From the NCBI GenBank assembly GCA_963665775.2, contig CAXXTF010000002.1:96001-160000 (forward strand): a DNA stretch of 64,000 nt, written 5' to 3'. Positions 38,824 through 40,029 of the stretch are shown here, in pieces. The stretch is from Dehalococcoidia bacterium. Its GTDB lineage: Bacteria; Chloroflexota; Dehalococcoidia; SM23-28-2; RBG-16-64-32. Position 1 is the first letter of the stretch; each line of letters begins with the position of its first letter. Both the position numbers and the translations under genes were made by a program. The notes beneath the pieces were generated by a model. That model ran no database searches and had not been told where the DNA came from. It worked only from the letters and a program-made list of their open reading frames with translations.

Positions 38824-38858
38824 GTCCCGCTTCTTCATTACAGCAACTGTCTTGAGAG

Positions 38859-39822
38859 TCAAGAGGGATGAGAGGCGACCTTCGGAGCCAGGTCGCGCCA
38901 AGGCGAGCCATTCTTGACCATGGAGTTGAGGATGACGAGCAGCTTGCGCATGCAGGCTGTGAGGGCCAGCTTCTTCGGCTTACCAGCGGCTGTTAGCCGC
39001 TGGTAGAAGTCCCGGATGACAGGGTTGAAGCGGCTGGCTGTCAAAGCTCCCATGTACAGGGCGGCTCGGACCCGGGCACGTCCACCCCAGACACTGCGTT
39101 TGCCCCGCAGAGTGCCGCTGTCCCTGTTGAAGGGGGCCACACCCACCAAAGCGGCGATCTGCCGACGATCCAACGTGCCCAGCTCCGGTAGGTAGGCCAA
39201 GAGGGTGAGGGACAGCTGCTCTCCCACGCCGGGGACGCTGCGCAGGAGGGTCATCCTTCTCTCGCCACACGGGGCTCTGACGAAGGGTTCGCCGCAGACC
39301 CTCACCCAGGTCGTCCAACTCCCGCTCCAGCCATGCAATGTGAGCCTCGATGCGGGGACGCACGGCAATGGTAGCAGCGCCCAGGCGGTTCTTCTCCGAG
39401 ACCAGCATGGTCATCACCTGGTGTCTGCGAGCGACCAGCGAGTTGAGCCCCTGGGTCTCGGCGTCTCGCAGAGGACGCACGGGAGGTCGGACCGCTTCGG
39501 CGAAGTGAGCCAGGACCGCTGCATCCAGAGCGTCGGTCTTGGCCAGCTTCCCGGTGGCCTTGGCGAAGTCCCGCACCTGGCGGGGGTTGACCACGACCAC
39601 TGGTAGCGCCTCGGCTGCTAGGGCGGCCACCAACGGCAGTTCCAATCCGCCCGAAGCCTCCAGCAACACCATGACCGGTTCAAGGGCCTTCATCTGGGAG
39701 ACCAGGTGCCGGACCCCTGTCTCGTCATGAGAGACCTCCCATTTGTCGTCCGTGGGACGGACGGCGACGTCCAACTGAGCCTTGGCTACATCAATGCCTA
39801 CGTAGGTCGCTTCCTGCTCCAT
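38859..39822 (-). CDS. IS110 recombinase/transposase (extra C near 39249)
   Basis: GGAGG RBS; GIDVAK, LEASG, KTDALDA (DEDD); RDSG serine motif; ACMRKLL. Confidence 0.93.
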
Positions 39823-39837
39823 GAGCACCTCCTGCGA

Positions 39838-40002
39838 ATTACTGGCCCGTCCTTGCGAGATGCGGGCTTGGTTGGCCCAGGCAACTGTTCGGGCTCCATT
39901 CGGGATGGGCGCGGCGACCCTCGCTGTAATGCGGTCTTCCAAGACCAGGGAGGAAACGGTCTGCCGCGCCCCGATCCGACTTTGAAGTGATTGTCCCATA
40001 CC
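39838..40002 (-). ncRNA. IS110 bridge RNA (target- and donor-binding loops)
   Basis: Two stem/internal-loop/hairpin units whose loop segments match the flanks (TTCCTCC; CATTACAG) and the donor (ACAGTTGC; CAAG); ends approximate. Confidence 0.85.
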
Positions 40003-40029
40003 AAAACCAAGATACAAGGAGGAAGCGAC

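What the first reader, a model, noticed from the sequence alone, without database searches (positions are those of the whole stretch)
38836..40025. IS110 bridge RNA with all four guides readable and matching its own sites
Seen (minus strand): target loop closed by GGGCGCGGC/GCCGCGCCC with central hairpin GGTCTT-GG-AAGACC. Left guide TTTCCTCC (39956-39949) matches left flank CTTCCTC-C(T); right guide CATTACAG (39931-39924) is the exact reverse complement of CT-GTAATG. Donor loop closed by GCCCG/CGGGC has ACAGTTGC (39888-39881) matching right end ACAGTTG-C(T), and CAAG matching CT-TG. Circularisation creates TTGACT-N17-TATCTT. Established: this is the IS621-type bridge recombination layout. The class is known, but this is a fully specified natural ortholog with an 8-nt right-target match.
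Basis: partly seen in the sequence, partly recalled or inferred. Interest (0 to 1): 0.85.

Follow-up and report, generated by a model that had tools for sequence, protein, structure and literature searches.

The report
IS110 insertion sequence with bridge RNA
This is a small mobile element of the known IS110 type. It carries its own guide RNA whose loops match its insertion site and its own ends, so it is a clean but ordinary new example, and its recombinase gene is broken by one extra base.

Summary
Observation confirmed. A 1175-bp IS110-family element lies on the minus strand (38844-40016), with a CT core at both ends (38842-43, 40017-18).

**Recombinase.** The gene has PF01548 and PF02371. 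All five IS621 catalytic residues align. One extra C at 39248-39250 splits the gene between the two domains.

**Bridge RNA.** The 194-nt left end folds into two stem-loops with internal loops.

**Family test.** I compared 61 related Dehalococcoidia/Chloroflexota loci plus the window. The target-loop guides track each copy's own flanks. Over 28 guide classes, 263 of 364 letters match, against 116.9 ± 10.4 when flanks are permuted (0 of 20,000 permutations reach it). The left donor guide changes together with the right end in 5 loci.

**Empty site.** Public contigs from three runs join 38841 directly to 40017. They skip exactly 1175 bases with 2 shared letters.

**Caveats.**
- Family covariation supports 5 + 2 core letters per target guide, so the eighth letter of the right-target match is probably chance.
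- The right donor guide match is at chance level on its own.
- This is the only copy in the genome, and it is frameshifted.

The class has been known since 2024. This is a new member of a known kind, of modest interest.

The parts
38844..40016 (-). Body of the IS110-family element. It is 1175 bp when one CT core is counted.
   Evidence: BLAST of the window element against 80 related loci: the match starts at query 24-42 (left boundary = 41) in 57 of 80, and ends at 1217-1221 (right core ends at 1217) in 64 of 80. Contigs in 3 runs skip exactly 38842-40016.
40017..40018 (-). CT core dinucleotide at the left end
   Evidence: CT lies next to TGTATC in most related loci. 2 letters are shared at the empty-site joint.
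38842..38843 (-). CT core dinucleotide at the right end
40019..40025 (-). Left target flank CTTCCTC. On the + strand this is GAGGAAG, the Shine-Dalgarno region of the HTH gene.
38836..38841 (-). Right target flank GTAATG
39823..40016 (-). Non-coding left end (194 nt) that encodes the bridge RNA
39907..39971 (-). Target-binding stem-loop: outer stem, internal loop with the two target guides, inner hairpin 39933-39946
   Evidence: MFE fold. RNAalifold consensus of 40 sequences; compensatory changes at 3 outer-stem pairs.
39948..39956 (-). Left target guide TTTCCTC-CC (same sense as the left flank plus core)
   Evidence: 7 of 9 letters match the flank. In the family, positions 3-9 match the own flank in 0.69-0.93 of 45 events; positions 1-2 in 0.24 and 0.31.
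39924..39931 (-). Right target guide CATTAC-AG (reverse complement of core plus right flank)
   Evidence: 8 of 8 letters match. In the family, positions 2-8 match in 0.82-1.0 and position 1 in 0.13. 30 of 20,000 shuffles reach 8/8.
39845..39894 (-). Donor-binding stem-loop
39881..39888 (-). Left donor guide ACAGTTG-C (same sense as the right end plus core)
   Evidence: 8 of 8 letters match (69 of 20,000 shuffles). It changes together with the right end in L014, L018, L031, L032 and L061.
39852..39857 (-). Right donor guide candidate UGCAAG. It pairs with CT-TGTA with one G-T wobble; only CAAG is contiguous Watson-Crick.
   Evidence: Read. Chance level on its own. Near-invariant in the family.
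39250..39822 (-). Recombinase, first frame (191 aa): DEDD RuvC-like domain and coiled coil
   Evidence: PF01548, E 9.2e-25. D11, E55, D97 and D100 align with IS621 D11, E60, D102 and D105.
39248..39250 (-). CCC run holding one extra C, which causes the frameshift
   Evidence: The 99%-identical intact orthologue P0002 reads ...[11 protein letters not shown].... One base is left out at 39248 in the X3 copy (depth 16 of 16). It is kept in the X1 and X2 contigs.
38859..39248 (-). Recombinase, second frame (129 aa plus stop): Tnp domain with the catalytic serine
   Evidence: PF02371, E 2.1e-19. Ser44-Gly45 of this piece align with IS621 S241-G242.
38857..38862 (-). TTGACT, the -35 half of the promoter formed when the ends are joined. 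It overlaps the recombinase stop codon.
   Evidence: TTGACT or TTGACA at this spacing in 26 of 30 distinct junction sequences.
40009..40014 (-). TATCTT, the -10 half of the junction promoter. The spacer is 17 once the ends are joined.
   Evidence: TATCTT in 22, TATGTT in 5 and TATCCT in 3 of 30 junction sequences.
40030..41145 (+). Flanking gene: protein with four HTH_3 repeats. Its ribosome-binding site abuts the left end of the element.
   Evidence: Pfam HTH_3, E 4.1e-33, 4 stretches; sequence.

Best explanation
This is an insertion sequence of the IS110 family, of the IS621 type. It encodes a DEDD/serine recombinase. Upstream of that gene, in its left end, it encodes a bridge RNA of roughly 160-180 nt with two internal loops.

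By analogy with IS621, the element excises as a circle. Joining the right and left ends across the CT core creates a TTGACT-N17-TATCTT promoter, which transcribes the bridge RNA. The donor loop holds the joined ends (ACAGTTG-CT-TGTATC). The target loop holds a genomic site (here CTTCCTC-CT-GTAATG). The recombinase then exchanges strands at the CT core.

The element is inserted 12 bases upstream of the start codon of a multi-HTH regulator gene. This particular copy is most likely non-autonomous, because one extra C separates the RuvC and coiled-coil part from the Tnp domain that carries the catalytic serine.

Shown here: family membership of the protein, the element boundaries, the fold, guide-flank covariation, and the existence of the empty allele.

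Inferred from IS621: the circle intermediate, use of the junction promoter, and the chemistry.
For: **Protein.** PF01548 (E 9.2e-25) and PF02371 (E 2.1e-19) are both present. The intact 99%-identical orthologue P0002 matches ISCro4 (9t56, E 9.9e-42, residues 1-308) and IS621 (8wt6, E 8.1e-41, residues 1-307). The window's two pieces align with IS621 D11, E60, D102, D105 and S241-G242 (residue roles from PMC11208158 passages).

**Boundaries.** Homology to 80 related loci begins at CT|TGTATC in 57 of 80 and ends at ACAGTTG|CT in 64 of 80.

**Guides.** Over 28 guide classes, 263 of 364 non-core letters match the own flank. Permuted flanks give 116.9 with sd 10.4 and a maximum of 164; 0 of 20,000 permutations reach the observed value. 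The left donor guide and the right end change together in 5 loci.

**Handshake-like pairs.** The two letters after each right guide pair with position 7 of the other DNA:
- Target loop to donor position 7: 43 of 45 Watson-Crick.
- Donor loop to target position 7: 41 Watson-Crick plus 3 G-U of 44.

**Fold.** RNAalifold recovers both stem-loops: 29 pairs, 4 of them with compensatory changes.

**Promoter.** The junction promoter halves are conserved.

**Empty allele.** A joint from 38841 to 40017 skips 1175 bases with 2 shared letters. It is seen in X1 (depth 92.7, side 30), X2 (41.8, side 35) and X3 (51.3, 2 contigs, side 21).

**Second site.** A 99%-similar copy without the extra C sits at another site in X3. 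Its contigs stop fitting at 38839 and 40022, so they share CCTC-CT and CT-GTA with the window's site.
Against: - No activity, circle junction or transcript end was observed. No back-joint between 38844 and 40016 is listed.
- The only RNA evidence is one 267-nt contig (39715-39981, depth 5.7, 0 differences) from an RNA library that may contain DNA.
- The fold energy is not exceptional (z = -1.85; -1.07).
- The right donor guide match is at chance level.
- The left target guide has C where the core needs U (CC against CT), and one mismatch at its outer end.
- Four loci have a single unmatched difference between the left donor guide and the right end: L007, L028, L041 and L045.
- The empty-site joints were found at 90% likeness. 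Their sides are 21-35 letters, and the tool warns that sides under 30 can come from other organisms.
- 19 of 80 loci were dropped from the guide analysis because my pattern did not find their left end. 4 more were dropped for lack of a right end or because of a gap.
- Rfam has no family that reaches its threshold here.
Confidence: 0.9

Rival explanations
1. The element is the same, but the extra C is a sequencing or assembly error. On this reading the copy is intact and autonomous.
For: Relatives in long-read MAGs carry frameshifts at many different places in this gene (those rows were picked because they were short, so the sample is biased). That is what homopolymer errors would give. The break lies in a CCC run. 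The 99%-similar copy in X3 lacks the extra base.
Against: Contigs of two runs from two studies carry the extra C with no other difference: X1 39048-39335 and X2 39166-39411, with 0 of 328.3 and 0 of 194.8 depth showing the base left out. One of these runs may be the sample the window was assembled from, so they are not fully independent.
Confidence: 0.2
2. The conserved structure in the left end is a cis-regulatory leader or a sense/antisense sRNA pair (sX15-like) that controls recombinase expression. On this reading the loop-flank matches are incidental.
For: Rfam sX15 gives sub-threshold hits on the antisense strand: 35.5 bits in the window, and 29.2-37.9 bits in 9 of 10 related loci.
Against: A leader would not need loops that change with each copy's flanks. 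The loops covary with the flanks while the stems stay constant. All sX15 hits are below the gathering score of 55.
Confidence: 0.03
3. The guide-flank matches in this window are chance. The element picks its sites through the protein alone.
For: The left target guide (1477 of 20,000) and the right donor guide (19,792 of 20,000) are not significant alone.
Against: The right target guide and left donor guide are each rare in shuffles (30 and 69 of 20,000). The joint match of three guides occurs in 0 of 20,000. The family permutation test gives 0 of 20,000.
Confidence: 0.01

Closest known systems
IS621 (Escherichia coli) bridge recombinase and bridge RNA (Durrant et al. 2024, PMC11208160; Hiraizumi et al. 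2024, PMC11208158; passages read)
   Same: - Same two protein domains, with all five catalytic residues aligned.
- Bridge RNA in the left end, target loop first and donor loop second.
- The left guides have the sense of the top strand and the right guides are its reverse complement.
- CT core included in the guides.
- The right donor guide pairs poorly and discontiguously.
- A promoter forms across the joined ends.
- Two letters after the right guides can pair with position 7 of the partner DNA, like the handshake guides.
   Different: - Distant in sequence: phmmer E 8e-41 over the full length, with many substitutions.
- The right target guide is 7 letters (5 + core) by covariation, against the four-base guide stated for IS621.
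- The left target guide covaries over 7 letters (5 + core), not 9.
- The host is an uncultured Chloroflexota lineage.
- This copy is frameshifted.
- No experimental data exist for it.
ISCro4 transposase (PDB 9t56)
   Same: It is the best solved-structure match to the intact orthologue (E 9.9e-42, residues 1-308).
   Different: I know it here only from the PDB title. Its bridge RNA was not compared.
IS1111-group IS110 elements with a guide RNA encoded after the recombinase gene (seekRNA). This is recalled; the term appears only in the abstract listing of PMC13604230.
   Same: Same recombinase family and RNA-guided site choice.
   Different: Here the structured RNA lies upstream of the gene, in the left end. 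The right end is only about 15 nt past the stop codon.
Rfam RF02234 sX15 / asX7 of Xanthomonas (Schmidtke et al. 2011, PMC3300014, passages read)
   Same: The covariance model aligns to the mirror image of the bridge RNA region in the window and in 9 of 10 relatives. sX15 and asX7 are complementary RNAs and multicopy in Stenotrophomonas, as an IS-borne RNA would be.
   Different: All hits are below the gathering score (29-38 bits against 55) and on the opposite strand. No Xanthomonas sequence was examined here.

Membership tests
IS110 family, IS621-type (bridge RNA in the left end) | RuvC-like DEDD domain (PF01548) with the four acidic residues | tested here: met
   PF01548 at 87.7 bits against a cut-off of 29. 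D11, E55, D97 and D100 align with IS621 D11, E60, D102 and D105.
IS110 family, IS621-type (bridge RNA in the left end) | Tnp domain (PF02371) with the conserved serine, in one polypeptide with the DEDD domain | tested here: inconclusive
   The domain and the Ser-Gly are present: PF02371 at 70.1 bits against a cut-off of 21.3, with the alignment to S241-G242. But they lie in another frame, after one extra C. The 99%-identical orthologue P0002 has both domains in one 320-aa protein.
IS110 family, IS621-type (bridge RNA in the left end) | No terminal inverted repeats; conserved core dinucleotide at both junctions | tested here: met
   None of the 9 inverted pairs found joins the two termini. CT is at both junctions and in most relatives.
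IS110 family, IS621-type (bridge RNA in the left end) | Long non-coding left end that folds into two stem-loops with internal loops | tested here: met
   The left end is 194 nt. MFE fold and the consensus of 40 sequences (29 pairs, 4 with compensatory changes).
IS110 family, IS621-type (bridge RNA in the left end) | Target-loop guides complementary to the insertion site and covarying with it | tested here: met
   Window: 7/9 and 8/8. Family: 263 of 364 against 116.9 ± 10.4, with 0 of 20,000 permutations reaching it.
IS110 family, IS621-type (bridge RNA in the left end) | Left donor guide matching the right end | tested here: met
   8/8 (69 of 20,000 shuffles). Matched changes in 5 loci; unmatched single differences in 4 loci.
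IS110 family, IS621-type (bridge RNA in the left end) | Right donor guide matching the left end | tested here: inconclusive
   Only CAAG is contiguous, or 6 letters with a G-T wobble. This is chance level (19,792 of 20,000). It is near-invariant in the family, so no covariation test is possible. IS621 itself pairs discontiguously here.
IS110 family, IS621-type (bridge RNA in the left end) | Promoter reconstituted across the joined right and left ends | tested here: met
   TTGACT-N17-TATCTT in silico. The -35 is TTGACT or TTGACA in 26 of 30 junction sequences, and the -10 is TATCTT in 22 of 30. Its use was not tested.
IS110 family, IS621-type (bridge RNA in the left end) | Precise insertion and excision that leave an intact target with one core copy | tested here: met
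   Joint 38841 to 40017, skipping 1175 bases with 2 shared letters, in contigs of 3 runs. The sides are 21-35 letters at 90% likeness.
IS110 family, IS621-type (bridge RNA in the left end) | RNA-dependent recombination activity; circular intermediate | not testable with these tools
   No back-joint is listed. Contigs cannot show rare circles.

The most novel reading that the evidence does not exclude
The bridge-RNA region may be read on both strands. Its mirror image resembles sX15. In Xanthomonas, sX15 was detected as a real RNA that is complementary to a second RNA (asX7) and serves as the primary transcript of the neighbouring gene.

If the same holds here, an outward transcript from the left end would cross the CT core into the multi-HTH regulator gene. 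The ribosome-binding site of that gene is the very sequence the left target guide recognises. The element would then do two things: pair an antisense RNA against its own guide, and take over expression of the gene it lands in front of.
Probability: 0.1. Interest if true: 0.55.

Novelty: new member of a known kind. Interest (0 to 1): 0.3.

Why it matters
This is a compact natural bridge-recombination system: 1175 bp with a 320-aa recombinase in the intact orthologue. In nature it has already been reprogrammed into at least 28 target-guide classes on a nearly constant scaffold. Its right target guide is longer than that of IS621.

That natural series is a ready-made map of which loop positions are free to vary: 5 + 2 letters on each side, plus two handshake-like letters. 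This may help people who engineer such recombinases.

For the genome itself the element is an ordinary insertion. It sits in a region rich in mobile-element remnants and is polymorphic in the population.

Tried and rejected
1. **Does the family aim at ribosome-binding sites?** The left guide looks like an anti-Shine-Dalgarno sequence, and several flanks have a start codon 7-13 nt away. This was rejected as a general rule. 12 of 56 distinct left flanks open an ORF of 80 or more codons within 5-18 nt. Random positions give 3167 of 20,000 (0.158), and AGGAG sites give 58 of 264 (0.22).

2. **Programmed frameshift.** Rejected. Frameshifts in relatives sit at different places, and the 99% orthologue lacks the extra base.

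3. **Empty site in held genomes.** No orthologous locus turned up in 40 relatives. Four had only weak 40-58-nt matches, with E of 9.5e-5 or worse.

4. **Metagenome scans.** Exact-pattern scans for the right flank and for the target loop both found 0 stretches.

5. **Palindrome as a repeated REP-like target.** The palindrome at 38752-38823 is single copy in the own genome.

6. **Promoters in the integrated state.** The consensus scan found 0 sites on either strand in 38600-40300.

7. **Circle junction.** No back-joint is listed, and contigs could not be expected to show one.

8. **RNA evidence.** The RNA-library contig (X16, 39715-39981) does not show a transcript start, end or strand.

9. **Other copies.** There is no other IS110-type recombinase in the own genome: 1 PF01548 match. 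There is no second copy of the element either. The 85-nt, 78% match on contig 1 was not followed up.

10. read the donor-loop handshake letters one position off. One search is the corrected count.

11. **Things I could not see.** Supplementary tables of Durrant et al. may already list this orthologue family, but they were not available.
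Full report
**What is there.**

Read on the minus strand, the region is a compact mobile element. It starts with a CT dinucleotide (40018-40017), followed by TGTATCTTGG... Next comes a 194-nt non-coding stretch, then a recombinase gene that starts at 39822. The gene's stop codon is at 38861-38859. The right end is ...TTGACTCTCAAGACAGTTG (down to 38844), followed by a second CT (38843-38842).

The first frame of the gene (39250-39822) carries PF01548 (E 9.2e-25). The second frame (38862-39248) carries PF02371 (E 2.1e-19). 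Searches had failed on my wrong coordinates.

The two frames are separated by one extra C in a CCC run at 39248-39250. A 99%-identical protein in the public collection (P0002, 320 aa) reads straight through as ...[18 protein letters not shown]....

**Is it an IS110/IS621-type recombinase?**

P0002 matches the solved ISCro4 transposase (9t56, E 9.9e-42, residues 1-308) and the IS621 transposase (8wt6, E 8.1e-41, residues 1-307). Nothing else in the PDB matches at E ≤ 0.001.

The window's own two pieces align to IS621 so that D11, E55, D97 and D100 fall on IS621 D11, E60, D102 and D105. The Ser-Gly of ...NRDSGT... falls on S241-G242. The residue roles come from passages of PMC11208158 read.

The break lies close to the border between the coiled-coil and the Tnp domain. 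As encoded, the catalytic serine is therefore cut off from the DEDD site.

**Boundaries.**

A scan of one genome per species found 401 stretches that encode a relative. The best 80 were kept. Nearly all are from Dehalococcoidia or other Chloroflexota MAGs.

I ran BLAST of the window element plus 40-nt flanks against these 80 loci. Nucleotide identity is 71.6-89.0%.
- The match starts at query 24-42 in 57 of 80 loci (the left boundary is at 41).
- It ends at 1217-1221 in 64 of 80 loci (the right core ends at 1217).
- Both hold in 43 of 80.

The printed junctions show CT|TGTATC... and ...ACAGTTG|CT with unrelated DNA outside.

**The RNA.**

The energy is unremarkable (z = -1.85).

I aligned 40 distinct left ends and ran RNAalifold on the alignment. 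It recovers the outer stem, the inner hairpin of the first loop and the stem of the second loop. There are 29 pairs, and 4 of them carry compensatory changes, for example U-A to C-G, which the window itself shows.

The stems are nearly invariant. The two sides of the first internal loop are the most variable columns of the alignment.

**Do the loops read the flanks?**

For 61 loci plus the window, my pattern found the left end. 19 of 80 loci were dropped because the pattern missed it. 58 of the 62 had both flanks; 4 were dropped for a contig end or a gap. These give 45 distinct guide-and-flank combinations in 28 guide classes.

I took one representative per class and counted only non-core letters. 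263 of 364 letters match the copy's own flanks. When flanks are permuted among classes, the mean is 116.9, the sd 10.4 and the maximum 164. None of 20,000 permutations reach the observed value.

The left guide alone gives 133 against 68.4 ± 6.3, and the right guide alone gives 130 against 48.5 ± 6.6.

Position by position:
- The left guide matches at positions 3-9 (0.69-0.93) but not at 1-2 (0.24, 0.31).
- The right guide matches at positions 2-8 (0.82-1.0) but not at 1 (0.13).

So both target guides are 5 letters plus the 2-letter core. The window's eighth right-guide match is probably luck.

Durrant et al. state that IS621 has a nine-base left and a four-base right target guide, and that some orthologues have a longer right guide (PMC11208160, passages). 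This family is one of those orthologues.

**Donor loop.**

ACAGTTGC equals the right end plus the first core letter. In L014 and L018, both the guide and the end read ACAGCTG. In L031, L032 and L061, both read ACGGTTG. Four loci have one unmatched difference: L007, L028, L041 and L045.

The right donor guide is weak. CAAG pairs with CTTG, extendable to six letters with one G-T wobble. This is what shuffled sequence gives (19,792 of 20,000), and the segment hardly varies in the family. IS621 also pairs discontiguously here, so this is not evidence against the model. But 'all four guides readable' overstates the case.

The two letters that follow each right guide can pair with positions 7 and 6 of the partner DNA, as the handshake guides of IS621 do:
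- Target loop CG against donor G, T: position 7 is Watson-Crick in 43 of 45 events.
- Donor loop GA against target C, T: position 7 is Watson-Crick in 41 and G-U in 3 of 44; position 6 is Watson-Crick in 27 of 44. The one G-to-A change goes with a C-to-T change in the target.

This is inference from position, not a tested function.

**Chance within the window alone.**

In 20,000 shuffles of the left end, the right target guide match is reached 30 times, the left donor guide 69 times and the left target guide 1477 times. The first three guides together are reached 0 times.

**Promoter.**

Joining the ends gives TTGACT, 17 bases, TATCTT. Among 30 distinct junction sequences in the family, the -35 is TTGACT or TTGACA in 26. 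The -10 is TATCTT in 22, TATGTT in 5 and TATCCT in 3. In the integrated state the consensus scan finds no promoter on either strand. This fits the IS621 picture of expression from the circle.

**Public reads.**

I laid contigs of four runs on 38200-40700 at 90% likeness.

- *Empty allele.* A joint from 38841 to 40017 skips exactly 1175 bases with 2 letters shared. It is present in X1 (depth 92.7, side 30), X2 (41.8, side 35) and X3 (51.3, two contigs, side 21). The sides are short, and the tool warns about sides under 30. However, the coincidence with boundaries derived independently is exact.
- *Which strain carries it.* In X1 and X2 the contig carrying the joint also differs from the window at 38756-38762. 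The empty allele therefore belongs to a slightly different strain.
- *Occupied allele.* An error-free X1 contig (39898-40046, depth 70) reaches 30 letters past the left boundary.
- *The extra C.* It is present in error-free contigs of X1 (39048-39335) and X2 (39166-39411). It is absent in X3, where a 99%-similar copy sits at another site. The X3 contigs stop fitting at 38839 and 40022, so the two sites share CCTC-CT and CT-GTA.
- *RNA.* An RNA-library contig (X16, same sample as X3) covers 39715-39981 without a difference, at depth 5.7. It shows presence in that library and nothing more.
- *Circle.* No back-joint of the ends is listed.

**Copy number and context.**

The own genome (2.35 Mb, 2 contigs, 91% complete) holds this one copy and one PF01548 match. 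With a broken gene and no helper, the copy is probably stuck.

It sits 12 bases upstream of the ATG (40030) of a protein with four HTH_3 repeats. The gene's GGAGG is kept, but whatever lay upstream is moved away. Next to the right flank are a perfect 25-nt-arm palindrome, single copy in the genome, and a fragment of an IS256/Mutator transposase.

I tested whether the family as a whole aims at ribosome-binding sites and found no enrichment (12 of 56, against 0.158 and 0.22 in the two controls).

**Comparison with what is known, and novelty.**

The element meets the features that define IS621-type IS110 elements. Three exceptions remain: the recombinase is in two frames, the right donor guide cannot be confirmed, and activity is untested. 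Those defining features were published in 2024.

Rfam has no family that reaches threshold here. The only hit is sX15 on the opposite strand (35.5 bits, gathering score 55), repeated in 9 of 10 relatives at 29.2-37.9 bits.

The element is a new member of a known kind. Its value is as a naturally diversified series and a short orthologue with a longer right target guide.

Noticed in passing
window 39871-39985 (+); L009, L021, L039, L004, L014, L060, L031, L048 and L069 at about 2338-2500 (-): Rfam RF02234 (sX15 of Xanthomonas) aligns below threshold to the strand opposite the bridge RNA. This happens in the window (35.5 bits) and in 9 of 10 related loci (29.2-37.9 bits; gathering score 55). In the 2011 paper, sX15 and asX7 are complementary plasmid RNAs with 10 homologues in a Stenotrophomonas chromosome. 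The Rfam family may therefore be the mirror image of an IS110 bridge RNA.
   Followed up: partly
window 37707-38168 (+): A fragment of an IS256/Mutator-family transposase (PF00872, profile positions 27-129 of 379). The IS110 element therefore lies in a patch of mobile-element remnants.
   Followed up: partly
window 38752-38776 / 38799-38823: A perfect 25-nt-arm inverted repeat with a 22-nt loop, 19 nt from the insertion point. It is single copy in the own genome. The strain that carries the empty site differs within its left arm (38756-38762).
   Followed up: partly
window 40030-41145 (+): A gene for a protein with four tandem HTH_3 (Xre-type) repeats. The element's left end abuts its ribosome-binding site, so its native upstream region has been displaced by 1175 bp.
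   Followed up: no
window 39806-39818 vs 40017-40029: The first codons of the recombinase gene are 12 of 13 identical, in the same sense, to the flanking core plus ribosome-binding-site stretch. Other pairs of similar quality occur in the same 2 kb, so this is probably chance.
   Followed up: no
proteins P0003, P0010-P0013, P0017, P0026, P0053, P0056, P0065 (relatives): Many relatives of the recombinase in long-read MAGs are frameshifted, each at a different place. This means either frequent decay of copies or homopolymer errors in those assemblies. The rows were picked because they were short, so no rate can be given.
   Followed up: partly
L015 1-989; L031 335-1152; L034 (several pieces on both strands): Some related loci hold a second, partial or inverted copy of the element within 2.5 kb of the first.
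   Followed up: no
window 34496-35824 (+): A 443-aa ORF with an HTH_32/HTH_29 N-terminus and no other Pfam match. Such an N-terminus is often seen in transposases (recalled, not tested here).
   Followed up: no
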